IMG/VR virus record: IMGVR_UViG_2526164601_000022
Length of the DNA stretch: 17,593 nt
Source: a virus
Lineage: Duplodnaviria; Heunggongvirae; Uroviricota; Caudoviricetes
Direction: 5' to 3' (one strand)
Shown: positions 3,714-17,593 of the stretch, one piece after another
How the letters are laid out: each line of letters starts with the position of its first letter
Numbering within the stretch: the stretch's first letter is position 1
The notes under the pieces: model-generated
Databases searched by the model: none
What the model was told of the DNA's origin: nothing
The model's input: the letters and a program-made list of their open reading frames with translations, nothing else
Position numbers and translations under genes: made by a program

Positions 3714-3770
3714 CACGTTATCAGGCCACCGCGGTGGCCTGACTGATTTCTGAATGAAAGGAACTGATTT

Positions 3771-4799: not shown

Positions 4800-4807
4800 T
4801 CCGTGAG

Positions 4808-4836
4808 CGGGGGCGAAATGCCCCCGTGTCTTTTTT
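4808..4836 (+). terminator. Candidate intrinsic terminator / attenuating hairpin downstream of E
   Basis: 7-bp G+C stem CGGGGGC (4808-4814) / GCCCCCG (4820-4826), loop GAAAT, then TGTC + T6 (4831-4836); 9 nt after E stop, in the FI leader. Confidence 0.45.
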
Positions 4837-5234: not shown

Positions 5235-5433
5235 TTTTCAGAATGCCTTTGATGCTGCCCTTGCCGGGGTGGACAGCACGATTGTTGAAGTGATGGGGCT
5301 CTGTGCGCAGTTCACCTCGGGGGCACAGTGTGGCAGCGAAGTTCAGGGGGTTTTTGACGATCCGGAGTCGCTGGGGTTTGCCGGTAGCGGGGTCCGTATT
5401 GAAGGAAGCTGCCCGTCATTATTTAACTGGTAA
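5227..5433 (+). pseudogene. FII: Head-tail connector gpFII, C-terminally truncated (about 66 homologous codons, then NW-stop)
   Basis: MRDFQNAFDAALAGVDSTIVEVMG...GVFDDPESLGFAGSGVRIEGSCPSLF matches the first ~66 residues of recalled lambda FII (117 aa); reading frame ends at TAA 5431-5433 where homology stops. Confidence 0.7.
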
Positions 5434-10724: not shown

Positions 10725-11421
10725 TGCAGGATATTCACGAAGAAAGTCTGAACGAGTCGGTTAAATCAGAGCAGTCACCGCGGGTGGTGCTCTGGGAAAT
10801 TGACCTGACGGTGCAGGGCGGTGAGCGGTATTTTTTCTGTAATGAGCTGAATGAAAAAGGGGAGGCGGTCACCTGGCAGGGGCGGCAATATCAGGTATAC
10901 CCGATTGACGGCAGTGGCTTTGAGATGAACGGGAAGGGCAGCAGTGCCCGCCCGTCGCTGACGGTGTCGAATCTGTTCGGTCTGGTCACCGGAATGGCGG
11001 AGGACCTGCAGAGCCTGGTGGGGGCCACGGTGGTCCGCCGCCGGGTGTATGCCCGTTTTCTGGATGCGGTGAATTTTGTGGCGGGCAATCCGGAAGCGGA
11101 CCCGGAGCAGGAGCTGAGCGACCGCTGGGTGGTGGAGCAGATGTCAGAGCTGACGGCCATGACAGCCTCGTTTGTGCTGGCAACACCGACGGAGACGGAC
11201 GGAGCGCTGTTTCCCGGTCGCATTATGCTGGCGAATACCTGTATGTGGACCTACCGCTCTGATGAGTGTGGTTACACGGTCCTGCGGTGGCGGATGAGTT
11301 CGATAAACCCATCACCGATATCCGTAAGGACAGATGCAGCAAGTGCATGCGCGGGTGTGAGATGCGCGGCATGGTGGCTAATTTTGGCGGTTTCCTTTCC
11401 ATTAACAAACTTTCGCAGTAA
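10724..11421 (+). pseudogene. L: Minor tail protein gpL, 1-bp frameshift near codon 185 (or assembly indel)
   Basis: Residues 1-184 match recalled lambda L (…GRIMLANTCMWTYRSDECGY); the lambda-like C-terminus GPAVADEFDKPITDIRKDRCSKCMRGCEMRGMVANFGGFLSINKLSQ-stop continues from 11278 in frame +2 relative to the start, implying one missing base at 11276-11278. The uninterrupted track ORF (to 11731) is the out-of-frame readthrough. Confidence 0.75.
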
Positions 11422-11426
11422 ATCCA

Positions 11427-12901: not shown

Positions 12902-12929
12902 GGAATAAAGGTAAGGGCCCGCCCTTACC
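12902..12929 (-). terminator. Candidate intrinsic terminator of sodC
   Basis: Perfect 9-bp inverted repeat GGTAAGGGC (12910-12918) / GCCCTTACC (12921-12929), 2-nt spacer; on the - strand followed by UUUAUUCC; 8 nt downstream of the sodC stop. Confidence 0.45.
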
Positions 12930-12936
12930 TGACTGA

Positions 12937-13464
12937 TTATTGAATGATGCCGCAGGCCATTCTCGCACCACCACCGCCCAGGGGCTCCGGATGGTCATGA
13001 TGGTTATCACCGCCAGCATGAAGCATGAGAGAACGCCCTTTAATCTCTTTTAATGAGTTCAGTCTCGGGGCCAGGACCGGGTAGTTCGCTTTTCCGTCAT
13101 GCGTCACGAACAGCGCAGGGAGGTCGCCCAGGTGTCCATCCGGAGACCAGGGGCCAAGATGTTTGCCGGTGTTTTTCGGGTCAAAGTGACCGCCAGCCGA
13201 TAATGCTGCGACCGGTTTTCCGTCTTTCAGTGCCGGGGCGCAATTTCCTTTTTCGTGCACATGAAAACCATGAATGCCTTCAGACAGAGAGTGAAGGGCT
13301 GGTGTGAACAGCAGACCGTAGGGGGTCTCCTGAATGGTTATTTTTCCAATGCTGACTTCTTTTCCGTCAGCACTGACAAGGTTCATTGGGACTTCCTGTT
13401 CTGCTGCGTATCCGCATGATGCTGCTGTCAGCATGGCAATGGCAGCAATGATTTTACATTTCAT
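12937..13464 (-). CDS. sodC: Periplasmic Cu,Zn superoxide dismutase (prophage cargo/moron)
   Basis: 175 aa from ATG at 13464-13462 with SD GAGGG 6 nt upstream; signal peptide [20 protein letters not shown]; Cu/Zn-SOD motifs [47 protein letters not shown]. The 344-aa track ORF is an upstream over-extension. Confidence 0.9.
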
Positions 13465-13597: not shown

Positions 13598-16500
13598 ATG
13601 GGTAAAGGTGGCGGCAGGGCGCACACACCTCGTGAGGCGAAGGACAATCTCAAATCCACGCAGATGATGAGCGTGATTGACGCCATTGGTGAAGGGCCGA
13701 TTGAAGGTCCGGTGAAGGGGCTGCAGAGTATCCTGGTGAACAAAACCCCGCTGACGGACACGGACGGTAATCCTGTGATACATGGTGTGACCGCGGTCTG
13801 GCGCGCCGGGGAGCAGGAGCAGACACCACCTGAAGGCTTTGAGTCCTCCGGGGCGGAAACCGCACTGGGCGTGGAAGTGACGAAGGCAAAGCCGGTGACG
13901 CGCACCATTACATCCGCGAACATTGACCGCCTGCGGGTCACCTTCGGGGTGCAGTCACTGGTGCAGACCACGTCAAAGGGTGACCGAAACCCGACATCCG
14001 TCCGACTGCTGATTCAGTTACAGCGTAACGGTAACTGGGTGACGGAAAAGGATGTCACCATTAACGGCAAGACCACCTCGCAGTTTCTGGCGTCGGTGAT
14101 TCTGGATAATCTGCCTGAGCGGCCCTTTAACATCCGGATGGTCCGGGAGACAGCGGACAGCACCTCGGACCAGCTGCAGAATAAGACGCTCTGGTCGTCA
14201 TACACCGAAATCATCGATGTGAAACAGTGCTACCCGAACACGGCGATTGTGGGGCTGCAGGTGGATGCGGAGCAGTTCGGCGGCCAGCAGATGACGGTGA
14301 ACTACCATATCCGCGGTCGCATCATCCAGGTGCCGTCAAACTATGACCCGGAAAAACGCACGTACAGTGGTATCTGGGACGGCAGTCTGAAACCGGCATA
14401 CAGCAACAACCCGGCCTGGTGTCTGTGGGACATGCTGACTCACCCGCGCTACGGCATGGGAAAACGTCTGGGGGCGGCGGATGTGGACAAGTGGGCGCTG
14501 TATGCCATCGGGCAGTACTGCGACCAGACGGTCCCGGATGGTTTCGGGGGGACCGAGCCGCGGATGACCTTTAATGCGTACCTGGCACAACAGCGTAAGG
14601 CGTGGGACGTTCTCAGTGATTTCTGCTCTGCGATGCGCTGTATGCCGGTATGGAACGGTCAGACGCTGACGTTCGTTCAGGACCGCCCGTCGGATGTGGT
14701 GTGGCCGTACACCAACAGCGATGTGGTGGTGGATGATAACGGCGTGGGATTCCGCTACAGCTTCAGTGCCCTGAAGGACCGGCACACGGCGGTGGAGGTG
14801 AATTACACCGACCCGCAGAACGGCTGGCAGACCTCCACGGAACTGGTGGAAGACCCGGAAGCCATACTGCGCTACGGACGCAACCTGCTGAAGATGGACG
14901 CGTTCGGCTGTACCAGCCGCGGTCAGGCCCACCGTGCCGGACTGTGGGTGATAAAGACCGAACTGCTGGAAACGCAGACGGTGGATTTCACGCTCGGGTC
15001 TCAGGGGCTGCGGCACACACCCGGTGACATTATTGAAATCTGTGATAATGACTATGCCGGGACCCTGACCGGCGGACGTGTCCTGTCCATTGATGCTGCC
15101 ACCCGCACCCTGACGCTGGACCGTGAGGTGACCCTGCCGGAGACAGGTGCCGCCACGGTGAACCTGATTAACGGCAGCGGTAAGCCGGTGAGTGTGGCCA
15201 TCACTGCACACCCCGCGCCGGACCGGATACAGGTCAGCACCCTGCCTGATGGTGTGGAGACATACGGTGTATGGGGACTCTCCCTGCCGTCACTGCGTCG
15301 TCGCCTGTTCCGCTGTGTCTCCATCCGGGAAAACACGGACGGCACCTTTGCCATCACGGCGGTGCAGCACGTACCGGAAAAGAAGCCATCGTGGATAACG
15401 GGGCCAGCTTTGAGCCGCAGTCAGGCACCCTGAACAGCGTTATTCCACCGGCAGTGCAGCACCTGACGGTGGAGGTGAGCGCGGCTGACGGTCAGTATCT
15501 GGCACAGGCGAAATGGGACACGCCGCGGGTGGTGAAGGGTGTGCGCTTCAGTCTGCGCCTGACCAGCGGAAGCGGAGAAGACAGCCGTCTGGTGACCACC
15601 GCCATCACTGCGGATACAGAGCATCGTTTCAGTGGTCTGCCGCTCGGGGAATACACCCTGACAGTCAGGGCAATTAACAGTTATGGCCAGCAGGGGAACC
15701 GGCCACCACCACGTTCAGGATTAATGCACCTGCGGTACCGCCACGATTGAGCTGACACCGGGCTATTTTCAGATAACAGCGGTCCCGCGTCTTGCGGTGT
15801 ATGACCCGACGGTACAGTTTGAGTTCTGGTTTTCGGAGGCAAAAATCGCAGACATATCTCAGGTGGAAACCTCTGCCCGTTATCTGGGGACCGGCAGTCA
15901 GTGGAGTGTATCCGGCCCGCACATTAAGCCCGGGAAGGATTTCTGGTTTTACGTGCGCAGCGTCAACCTGGTGGGGAAATCTGCTTTTGTGGAAGCCAGT
16001 GGCCGGGCCAGCAATGATGCAGAAGGGTATCTGGGACTGTTTCGGGAAAAAATAGGAAAACTGCATCTGGCTCAGGGGCTGTGGGAGCTGATAGACAACA
16101 GCCAGCTTGCGGATGAGATGGCGGAGATGAAGACCACCATCACCGAAACCCGCAATGAAATCACACAGACGGTCAGTAAAACGCTGGAAGACCAGAGCGC
16201 CACCATACAGCAGATACAGCGCGTGCAGAAGGACACAAATGATGACCTTGCTGCACTTTACATGCTGAAGGTACAGAAAACAAAAAATGGCATACCCTAT
16301 GTTGCCGGTATTGGAGCGGGGATTGAGGATACTGATGGCCAGCCCCTGAGCAACATACTGCTGCTGGCTGACCGTATTGCGATGATTAACCCGGAGGACG
16401 GCAACACCACGCCGTTATTTGTGGCGCAGGGGAATCAGTTGTTCATGAACGATGTGTTCCTGAAGCGGCTGTTTGCGGTGAGTATCACCTCGTCCGGCAA

Positions 16501-17069
16501 TCCCCCGACGTTTTCCCTGACGCCGGAGGGCAGGCTGACCGCAAGAAATGCTGATATCAGCGGTAACGTGAATGCGAATTCCGGGACGCTCAACAACGTC
16601 ACGATTAACGAGAACTGTCGGGTTCTGGGAAAACTGTCCGCGAACCAGATTGAAGGCGATCTCGTTAAAACAGTGGGCAAAGCTTTCCCCCGGGATTCCC
16701 GTGCACCGGAGCGGTGGCCATCAGGGACCATTACCGTCAGGGTTTATGACGATCAGCCGTTTGACCGACAAATTGTTATTCCGGCGGTGGCATTCAGCGG
16801 CGCTAAGCATGAGAGAGAGCATACTGATATTTACTCCTCATGCCGTCTGATAGTGCGGAAAAAACGGTGCTGAAATTTATAACCGTACCGCGCTGGATAA
16901 TACGCTGATTTACAGTGGCGTTATTGATATGCCTGCCGGTCACGGTCACATGACGCTGGAGTTTTCGGTATCAGCATGGCTGGTGAATAACTGGTATCCC
17001 ACAGCAAGTATCAGCGATTTGCTGGTTGTGGTGATGAAGAAAGCCACCGCAGGCATCAGTATCAGCTGA
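13598..17069 (+). pseudogene. J: Central tail fiber / host specificity protein gpJ, interrupted by four 1-bp indels (or assembly errors)
   Basis: Colinear with recalled lambda J (1132 aa) from [22 protein letters not shown] to the C-terminal ...[14 protein letters not shown]-stop (17067-17069), but homology hops frames at ~15378-15381 (A4, -1), ~15693-15696 (G4, -1), ~15744-15746 (-1) and 16859-16864 (A6, +1). SD GAGAGGAACATT before ATG 13598. Confidence 0.8.
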
Positions 17070-17088
17070 ATTTTATAACCCATATACG

Positions 17089-17112
17089 GGCGCCAGAAAT
17101 GGCGCCTTTTTT
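17089..17112 (+). terminator. Intrinsic terminator downstream of J
   Basis: 7-bp stem GGCGCCA (17089-17095) / TGGCGCC (17100-17106) with GAAA tetraloop, immediately followed by T6 (17107-17112); 20 nt after the repaired J stop. Confidence 0.6.
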
Positions 17113-17136
17113 ATTGCAGAAAAGCGAGAGGTAATT

Positions 17137-17593
17137 ATGCGTAAACTTTATGCCGCCATTTTGTCCGCAGCCATTTGTCTGGCCGTATCCGGTGCGCCTG
17201 CATGGGCGTCTGAACATCAGTCCACGCTGAGCGCGGGGTATCTTCATGTCTCGACGAACGTTCCTGGCAGCGATGAACTGAACGGGATTAACGTGAAATA
17301 CCGTTATGAGTTTACGGACACTCTGGGAATGGTGACGTCATTCAGCTATGCAGGAGACAAGAATCGCCAGCTGACCCGTTACAGCGATACCCGCTGGCAT
17401 GAAGATTCCGTGCGTAACCGCTGGTTCAGCGTGATGGCGGGGCCGTCTGTGCGCGTGAATGAATGGTTCAGCGCGTATGCGATGGCGGGTGTGGCTTACA
17501 GCCGTGTGTCGACTTTCTCCGGGGATTATCTTCGCGTAACTGACAACAAGGGGAAAACGCACGATGTGCTGACCGGAAGTGATGACGGTCGCC
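17137..17593 (+). CDS. lom: Ail/Lom-family outer membrane protein (partial; continues past window end)
   Basis: ORF open from ATG 17137 (SD GAGAGG 5 nt upstream) to window end, 152 codons; signal peptide MRKLYAAILSAAICLAVSGAPAWA; GINVKYRYEFTD, SVMAGPSVRVN, SAYAMAGVAYSR match recalled lambda Lom blocks. Absent from the ORF track because it has no in-window stop. Confidence 0.8.
   Translation, partial: MRKLYAAILSAAICLAVSGAPAWASEHQSTLSAGYLHVSTNVPGSDELNGINVKYRYEFTDTLGMVTSFSYAGDKNRQLTRYSDTRWHEDSVRNRWFSVMAGPSVRVNEWFSAYAMAGVAYSRVSTFSGDYLRVTDNKGKTHDVLTGSDDGR

What the first reader, a model, noticed from the sequence alone, without database searches (positions are those of the whole stretch)
17070..17593. 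Strong terminator after J followed by an Ail/Lom-family OMP gene
A GAAA-tetraloop hairpin plus T6 (17089-17112) ends the tail operon. 25 nt later, lom starts with its own SD and a signal peptide. Established knowledge: lambda lom is expressed from the prophage, and Ail/Lom/PagC-family proteins mediate adhesion and serum resistance. The lom promoter is not obvious in the short spacer and may overlap the J 3' end or the terminator.
Basis: partly seen in the sequence, partly recalled or inferred. Interest (0 to 1): 0.4.

Follow-up and report, generated by a model that had tools for sequence, protein, structure and literature searches.

The report
Terminator hairpin then prophage lom gene
This is the ordinary, already annotated junction between the tail-tip gene J and the outer-membrane protein gene lom in a lambda-like E. 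coli prophage. A real, conserved terminator hairpin sits between them, but it does not end the tail operon.

Summary
A 7-8 bp GC-rich hairpin with a GAAA loop (17088/9-17106/7) is followed by T6 (17107-17112). It lies 18 nt after the J stop codon (17067-17069). The lom ATG (17137) starts 25 nt after the T-run and has a GAGAGG Shine-Dalgarno. The ORF stays open for 152 codons to the window end.

The hairpin is beyond chance: it is the only strict terminator motif in the window, with none in 300 shuffles. It is also under selection: 3 of 8 stem pairs show compensatory changes across 23 distinct relatives, and lambda has a different hairpin at the same place.

The protein is Ail/Lom (PF06316, E 3e-89). 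It is 100% identical to the first 152 residues of 199-aa relatives, but only 38% identical to lambda Lom.

- Relatives and lambda carry side tail-fibre genes after lom, so the hairpin does not end the tail operon.
- J as written in this window is broken by four 1-bp indels, probably sequencing errors.
- No sigma-70 promoter for lom was found.

The arrangement is annotated in thousands of E. coli genomes. It is ordinary.

The parts
13598..17069 (+). Tail-tip / host-specificity gene J. As written in the window it is split into five frame segments by 1-bp indels near 15377, 15692-15695, 15737 and 16859.
   Evidence: tblastn of an intact relative's J (1157 aa) matches 13598-15385, 15379-15696, 15693-15740, 15740-16861 and 16860-17066 in different frames, at 98.5-100% identity. 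The indels appear against L001 and L003. Relatives annotate the gene as gpJ.
17070..17087 (+). Spacer between the J stop and the hairpin. It contains a -10-like TATAAC (17074-17079) and an AACCC motif shared by type A and type B relatives.
   Evidence: Sequence and upstream variants. No partner -35 was found. Function unknown.
17088..17112 (+). Intrinsic-terminator-type element: 8-pair stem (7 Watson-Crick pairs plus an outer G.U), GAAA tetraloop, then T6.
   Evidence: -15.7 kcal/mol. Covariation in 3 of 8 pairs, with 96.7% of cells paired against 39-59% for slid controls. RNAalifold predicts the same helix and nothing else.
17113..17136 (+). lom leader with Shine-Dalgarno GAGAGG (17126-17131), ending 5 nt before the ATG. 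Together with the T-run it is nearly invariant in type A relatives: 17107-17139 varies in only 2 of 17 distinct type A sequences.
17137..17208 (+). Signal peptide of Lom (24 residues, MRKLYAAILSAAICLAVSGAPAWA). No lipobox.
   Evidence: Translation. The n/h/c pattern was read by eye. The Pfam profile match starts at residue 1.
17137..17593 (+). lom, first 152 of an expected 199 codons, cut off by the window end.
   Evidence: PF06316 Ail_Lom, E 2.9e-89, profile positions 1-152 of 199. 100% identical to residues 1-152 of a 199-aa relative. PDB relatives: lambda Lom 9wso, OmpX, Ail.

Best explanation
The region is the J-lom junction of a lambda-like (Stx-phage-type) E. coli prophage.

Shown by sequence and comparison:
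- A conserved RNA hairpin plus U-tract lies directly after J.
- It is followed by an independently translated gene for a secreted Ail/Lom-family outer-membrane beta-barrel protein.

Inferred from established lambda biology:
- The hairpin acts as a Rho-independent terminator for ordinary RNA polymerase. In a lysogen it stops stray transcription coming out of the silent late region.
- During lytic growth, Q-modified polymerase ignores it. It then transcribes lom, passes a second terminator after lom, and continues into the side tail-fibre genes.

Least certain step:
- Prophage-state expression of lom would have to come from a weak or non-sigma-70 promoter in the J 3' end, or from leak through the terminator. 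The 24-nt leader holds no recognisable promoter.

By family analogy, Lom would sit in the host outer membrane as an adhesion or serum-resistance type conversion factor.
For: Hairpin:
- Anatomy as described.
- Unique in the window under a strict definition, with 0 of 300 shuffles matching.
- Stem pairs 17-28, 18-27 and 20-25 of alignment A4 switch GC/AU, CG/UA and AU/UA. 96.7% of cells are paired against 39-59% when the partner is slid, and the covariation score is 0.278 against 0.129 in shuffles (0 of 500 reach it).
- RNAalifold predicts only this helix.
- Lambda and a third Lom type carry hairpins of different sequence at the same position.

Gene:
- Ail_Lom E 2.9e-89.
- PDB relatives are lambda Lom, OmpX and Ail.
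- 100% identity to residues 1-152 of a 199-aa relative ending ...GVGYKF.
- Annotated as an Ail/Lom family protein next to gpJ in the closest of several thousand matching E. coli genomes.

Read-through requirement:
- Tail-fibre genes lie after lom in relatives and in lambda.
- Other strong hairpins sit inside the same late operon, after D (3721-3742) and after E (4807-4827).
Against: - No transcript data exist for this element, so termination and read-through are inferred.
- No promoter for lom could be found. There is no 9-of-12 sigma-70 match in 16000-17593, and the best weighted hit, at 16847, is weak. The prophage-expression part is therefore unexplained.
- Lambda lom expression in lysogens was detected in one array study and not in another.
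- The sequences used for covariation are close relatives, so the shuffle control overstates significance. The slid control is the fairer one.
- J, L and the FII/Z region look damaged in this window. The prophage may be defective, or the sequence may be error-prone.
Confidence: 0.8

Rival explanations
1. The hairpin is mainly an RNA-stability or processing element. It would protect the 3' end of processed J/late mRNA, or the 5' end of a lom message, from exonucleases, and would not work chiefly as a transcription stop.
For: Similar GC-rich hairpins follow the abundantly needed D and E genes inside the same operon, where termination cannot be complete. Late transcription must continue past this site to reach the tail-fibre genes.
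Against: A perfect T6 directly abuts the stem in nearly all type A and type B relatives (T5 in one, L121), and lambda has TTTTATT there. That feature is specific to intrinsic terminators and is not needed for a stabiliser. The two roles are also not exclusive.
Confidence: 0.15
2. The hairpin and U-tract form a leader attenuator for lom. A promoter in the last bases of J, or in the 18-nt spacer (for example the -10-like TATAAC at 17074-17079), would start a transcript whose first structure is the terminator. Lom output in lysogens would then be set by conditional read-through.
For: There is no room for a promoter between the T-run and the SD. A TATAAC/TATTAA-like element followed by AACCC is shared by type A and type B spacers, whose J ends differ. 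The lom promoter is unknown in the literature.
Against: The hexamer lacks the conserved final T and has no -35 partner. It is replaced by GTTTAAC in L165 and is absent in lambda. No alternative anti-terminator pairing is predicted.
Confidence: 0.08
3. The locus is part of a decaying, non-functional prophage. J is a pseudogene, and the terminator and lom are relics with no current role in this host.
For: The window has four frameshifts in J, one in L (11281) and a 327-bp loss at the FII/Z boundary relative to close relatives. None of 5,426 complete E. coli genomes shares the J indels at full identity (best 99.3%).
Against: Amino-acid identity within the J frame segments is 98.5-100%, with no other decay. 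All the J indels lie in short homopolymer runs. This fits sequencing error better than four independent mutations. The lom part is intact and 100% identical in protein to a relative. The hairpin, SD and ATG are intact.
Confidence: 0.12

Closest known systems
Bacteriophage lambda J - lom - stf (orf-401/orf-314) region (NC_001416, 18.9-21 kb)
   Same: Same gene order. Lambda has a hairpin plus T-run 17 nt after the J stop and 29 nt before the lom ATG (CGTCCG-GGAA-CGGGCG-TTTTATT). The SD is GAGAGGT. A second terminator and the tail-fibre start after lom are nearly identical in sequence to those of the window-type relatives.
   Different: The stem sequence differs, and lambda's hairpin is weaker (-9.7 against -15.7 kcal/mol) with an interrupted U-tract. 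Lom protein is only 38% identical over the first 150 residues, while the last 24 or so residues are identical.
Lom of Stx-converting and related E. coli prophages (e.g. BAT32440.1 of phage Stx2a_1447; WP_001230532.1, 'Ail/Lom family outer membrane beta-barrel protein')
   Same: DNA is 97-99% identical across the J end, spacer and lom. The context is the same, including sodC between the tail-assembly gene and J. Protein identity is 93-100%.
   Different: The window carries the GGGCGCC/GGCGCC stem variant where these two relatives have GGGCGTC/GACGCC. It has one extra base before the stem, and frameshifts in J that relatives lack.
Ail (Yersinia), OmpX (E. coli), Rck/PagC (Salmonella): small 8-stranded outer-membrane beta-barrels
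   Same: Same Pfam family (PF06316) and the OMP_b-brl superfamily. Sequence matches to the solved OmpX and Ail structures.
   Different: Scores fall below the NCBIfam equivalog cut-offs for OmpX and Rck, so this is not an orthologue of either. It is phage-borne and placed inside a late operon. Adhesion or serum-resistance activity has not been tested for this allele.
Intrinsic terminators inside Q-antiterminated late operons of lambdoid phages
   Same: A GC-rich stem followed by a U-tract, located between late genes that must be co-transcribed. Q-modified polymerase reading through such sites is established lambda biology, cited here from memory.
   Different: Termination and read-through have not been measured at this site. 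I recall named late-operon terminators (t'J series, Luk and Szybalski 1983) further into the b region, but could not check whether the post-J hairpin is one of them.

Membership tests
Ail/Lom family (Pfam PF06316) | Profile HMM match above the curated gathering score | tested here: met
   298.5 bits against a cut-off of 23, E 2.9e-89, profile positions 1-152 of 199.
Ail/Lom family (Pfam PF06316) | N-terminal Sec signal peptide for export to the outer membrane | tested here: met
   MRK, then a hydrophobic core, then AWA|S in the translation. This was read by eye; no dedicated predictor was available.
Ail/Lom family (Pfam PF06316) | Complete 8-stranded barrel ending in a C-terminal aromatic residue | not testable with these tools
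   The window ends at codon 152. Relatives identical over residues 1-152 continue to 199 aa and end in GVGYKF.
Orthologue of lambda Lom | High identity to lambda Lom along its length | tested here: not met
   38% identity over 138 aligned residues. It has the same position and the same family, but is a different allele type.
Rho-independent (intrinsic) terminator | GC-rich stem-loop immediately followed by a run of at least 5-6 U | tested here: met
   7 Watson-Crick pairs plus 1 G.U pair, 6 of them GC, GAAA loop, U6 abutting the stem.
Rho-independent (intrinsic) terminator | Structure maintained by selection (compensatory changes) | tested here: met
   3 of 8 pairs show double changes, and 96.7% of cells are paired against 39-59% for slid controls.
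Rho-independent (intrinsic) terminator | RNA 3' ends form at the U-tract in vivo or in vitro | not testable with these tools
   No transcript data were available.
Phage 'moron' (Juhala et al. 2000 sense: extra gene with its own promoter and terminator, expressed from the prophage) | Terminator directly downstream of the gene | tested here: met
   This lies outside the window. In relatives, GCCCGCC-GGTTCA-GGCGGGC-T6 starts about 29 nt after the lom stop. Lambda has the same.
Phage 'moron' (Juhala et al. 2000 sense: extra gene with its own promoter and terminator, expressed from the prophage) | Own promoter directly upstream | tested here: inconclusive
   No sigma-70 match of at least 9 of 12 in 16000-17593, and only weak weighted hits. 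Other sigma factors and activator-dependent promoters were not covered.
Phage 'moron' (Juhala et al. 2000 sense: extra gene with its own promoter and terminator, expressed from the prophage) | Transcribed in the lysogen | not testable with these tools
   Only lambda literature is available, and its results are mixed.

The most novel reading that the evidence does not exclude
The conserved hairpin and U-tract may be a regulatory attenuator rather than a passive boundary. The long-unidentified lysogenic promoter of lom would lie in the receptor-binding end of J or in the 18-nt spacer. Lom output in lysogens would then be set by conditional read-through of this terminator. The stronger terminator of the Stx-prophage type (-15.7 kcal/mol, U6), compared with lambda's (-9.7 kcal/mol, UUUUAUU), would give different Lom levels.
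Probability: 0.08. Interest if true: 0.4.

Novelty: already known. Interest (0 to 1): 0.12.

Why it matters
It matters little beyond correct annotation. The J-lom-tail-fibre order and the Lom family are textbook lambda biology, and they are annotated in thousands of E. coli genomes.

Two small points come out of the check:
- The post-J hairpin is under selection. It shows compensatory changes and is retained across three Lom types.
- lom is bracketed by two terminators with no visible promoter. This restates a minor open question, namely where lom is transcribed from in a lysogen.

For anyone using this sequence, the practical point is that J and L appear frameshifted. They should be checked before the prophage is called intact or defective.

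Tried and rejected
- Rfam scan of 16500-17593 with a permissive threshold gave only one chance-level hit (E 0.92). No known RNA family is present.
- Promoter searches found nothing convincing. There is no 9-of-12 sigma-70 match. A weighted -35/-10 scan of 16300-17140 gave only weak hits; the best is CTGATA-18-TGAAAT at 16847. -10-like readings of the T-run/ATT region and of TATAAC were rejected, because they lack the key A2 or T6 base or a -35 partner.
- I tried to find the source genome, and so extend lom, by exact search for a 43-mer spanning the A6 frameshift. There was no match in IMG/VR or in the GTDB representative genomes. No complete E. coli genome is more than 99.3% identical.
- Loci where the DNA upstream of lom differs (L011, L040, L137) looked at first like alternative architectures. 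They are IS66-family and IS4-family insertions into the spacer or hairpin.
- A bidirectional terminator was rejected. On the minus strand the stem is followed by GTATATGGG, not by a T-run.
- Literature searches for a mapped lom promoter or start site found only the statement that little is known about it. Liu et al. 2013 (ribosome profiling of lambda) was not held.
- I looked for what PDB entry 9wso contains besides lambda Lom. It does not contain J, and no paper mentioning it was found.

Full report
**1. What is in the sequence**

Reading 16800-17593 gives the following layout:
- The J reading frame ends with TGA at 17067-17069.
- After an 18-nt spacer comes a hairpin. G17088/G17089-A17095 pairs with T17100-C17106/T17107, the loop is GAAA (17096-17099), and the outermost pair is a G.U wobble.
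- The stem runs straight into T6 (17107-17112).
- A GAGAGG Shine-Dalgarno lies at 17126-17131.
- ATG lies at 17137-17139, with 5 nt between the SD and the start.

Translation from 17137 gives MRKLYAAILSAAICLAVSGAPAWA|SEHQSTLSAGY... and stays open for 152 codons, to the last base of the window. My first attempt started one base late and gave nonsense.

**2. Is the hairpin more than chance?**

- The general scan reports the hairpin, but at a rate no better than shuffles for the local 1.6 kb (1 found, 1.4 expected). Over the whole window it lists 25 lax sites against 14.6 expected.
- I therefore applied a strict definition: at least 7 Watson-Crick pairs, at least 5 GC, loop of 3-6, and T6 within 1 nt. 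Site 17089-17112 is the only hit on either strand of the 17.6-kb window, and 300 dinucleotide-preserving shuffles produced none.
- The hairpin folds at -15.7 kcal/mol.

**3. Comparative evidence for the hairpin**

The region is 96-99% identical to many Stx-converting phages and E. coli prophages. I collected about 160 loci around Lom relatives from IMG/VR and 41 more from species-representative genomes.

Three Lom types appear, and each has the layout J stop, hairpin, T-run, about 24-25 nt, ATG:
- Type A, the window type: GGGCGCC-AGAAAT-GGCGCC-T6.
- Type B: GGGCACC-TCAGGA-GGTGCC-T6.
- Lambda: CGTCCG-GGAA-CGGGCG-TTTTATT.

Within types A and B there are 23 distinct sequences (alignment A4). On these:
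- Three of the eight stem pairs carry compensatory double changes (GC/AU, CG/UA, AU/UA).
- 96.7% of cells are paired, against 39-59% when the 3' partner is slid by 1-3 columns.
- The covariation score is 0.278 against 0.129 in shuffles, and 0 of 500 shuffles reach it.
- RNAalifold predicts this helix and nothing else in the spacer.

Other variants fit a maintained hairpin:
- One G.U intermediate (L029).
- One recombinant with a broken stem (L075).
- One in which the loop and its closing pair are inverted, AGAAAT to ATTTCT (L030 and L142).

These sequences are close relatives, so the shuffle control flatters the result. The slid control, and the independent hairpin in lambda, are the stronger arguments. 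I conclude the hairpin is real and maintained.

**4. The gene**

- The 152-residue fragment matches Pfam Ail_Lom (PF06316) at E 2.9e-89 over profile positions 1-152 of 199. It also matches the general OMP beta-barrel family.
- Against solved structures it matches lambda Lom (9wso), OmpX and Yersinia Ail.
- It scores below the NCBIfam equivalog cut-offs for OmpX and Rck, so it is a Lom and not an orthologue of either.
- It is 100% identical to residues 1-152 of a 199-aa protein in IMG/VR locus L009, and 93% identical to WP_001230532.
- Those full-length relatives end in ...GFIVGVGYKF.
- It is only 38% identical to lambda Lom. The C-terminal 24 or so residues and the 3' flank of the relatives are nearly the same as lambda's, so lom is itself mosaic.

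**5. What the hairpin does not do**

In the closest relatives and in lambda, lom is followed by a second strong terminator. About 13 nt after that terminator's T-run is the start of the side tail-fibre genes. The tail operon therefore does not end after J.

Strong hairpins also follow D (3721-3742) and E (4807-4827; GAAA loop, T6) inside the same operon.

It is established lambda biology, cited here from memory, that Q-modified polymerase reads through terminators along the whole late operon. I infer that it does so at this site. In a lysogen, where Q is absent, the hairpin would stop unmodified polymerase.

**6. The promoter problem**

Only 24 nt separate the T-run from the ATG. That stretch holds the SD and no credible -10 element.
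- No sigma-70 match of 9 of 12 or better exists in 16000-17593.
- A weighted scan gives only weak candidates. The best is CTGATA-18-TGAAAT at 16847, whose spacer includes the suspect A6 run.
- A -10-like TATAAC (17074-17079) followed by AACCC is shared by type A and type B spacers. It lacks the final T and has no -35 partner. It is altered in L165 and absent in lambda.

The literature I could reach adds little:
- lom is reported as transcribed in lambda lysogens (Chen 2005, PMC1151598, citing Reeve and Shaw 1979).

**7. State of J and of the prophage**

Against intact relatives, the window has 1-bp deletions near 15377 (A5 to A4), 15692-15695 (G run) and 15737 (C3 to C2). It has a 1-bp insertion near 16859 (A5 to A6).

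tblastn with an intact 1157-aa J finds five segments in different frames. Identity within them is 98.5-100%, and exactly 100% across residues 595-1089.

Further differences from relatives:
- A 1-bp gap at 11281, in L.
- Two 1-bp gaps in the hairpin at about 12917-12921.
- A 5-bp gap at 11425.
- A 327-bp gap at 5424/5425, at the FII/Z boundary.

No complete E. coli genome shares the J indels (best match 99.3% identity). A 43-mer spanning the A6 run is absent from IMG/VR and from the representative genomes.

Four frameshifts in short homopolymer runs with no other decay point to sequencing error rather than a true pseudogene. I cannot prove this. It does not affect the hairpin or lom, which are intact.

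**8. Verdict**

It is wrong that the operon ends here, and it is loose in equating this gene with lambda's lom.

The arrangement is the standard one, already annotated, for lambdoid prophages of E. coli, Shigella, E. albertii and E. ruysiae. Interest is low.

The one open thread is where lom transcription starts in a lysogen, and whether the conserved terminator sets its level.

Noticed in passing
window 13598-17069 (indels near 15377, 15692-15695, 15737, 16859): J is split into five frame segments by four 1-bp indels in short homopolymer runs. Amino-acid identity to intact relatives is 98.5-100% within the segments, so sequencing error is more likely than a pseudogene.
   Followed up: yes
window 5424/5425; 11281; 11425; 12917-12921: Relative to close E. 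coli prophages, the window lacks 327 bp at the head-tail joining (FII) / tail protein (Z) boundary. It also has a 1-bp gap in L, which makes the L ORF run on to 11731, a 5-bp gap between L and K, and two 1-bp gaps in an intergenic hairpin.
   Followed up: partly
window 12937-13464 (- strand): A sodC (Cu/Zn superoxide dismutase family) gene sits on the opposite strand between the tail-assembly gene I and J, as in related STEC prophages. It is a second cargo gene in the tail region. A 9-pair hairpin at 12909-12930 lies between it and gene I.
   Followed up: partly
window 3721-3742 and 4807-4827 (+ strand): Strong GC-rich hairpins lie directly after the decoration gene D and the major capsid gene E. 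The one after E has a GAAA loop and a T6. They are terminator-like elements inside the late operon.
   Followed up: no
L040 and L137 (about 1440-1480), L011 (about 1445-1480): In three IMG/VR loci, IS elements are inserted between J and lom. IS4-family elements sit in the left arm of the hairpin (L040, L137). An IS66-family element sits 21 nt before the lom ATG (L011).
   Followed up: yes
L030 and L142, hairpin about 45 nt before lom ATG: The loop and its closing pair are inverted (AGAAAT becomes ATTTCT) while the stem is unchanged. This looks like a hairpin-loop inversion event.
   Followed up: no
L004 (lambda) 1000-1150 versus L009 2020-2170: lom is mosaic. Lambda and the window type differ strongly over the first 150 or so residues (38% identity). 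They share an identical C-terminal 24 or so residues, the downstream terminator region and the tail-fibre gene start.
   Followed up: partly
L174-L185 and other loci: Assemblies named as Pseudomonas, Shewanella, Neobacillus, Kitasatospora, Bradyrhizobium and others carry a Lom hit on low-coverage contigs. All these hits show the same 47% identity to the type A query, and some contigs are about 48.4 kb long. This looks like phage lambda control-DNA contamination, though I did not compare these loci with lambda directly.
   Followed up: no
PDB 9wso chain C: A solved structure containing lambda Lom now exists. The entry does not contain J, and I found no paper describing it. It might bear on what Lom binds.
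   Followed up: partly
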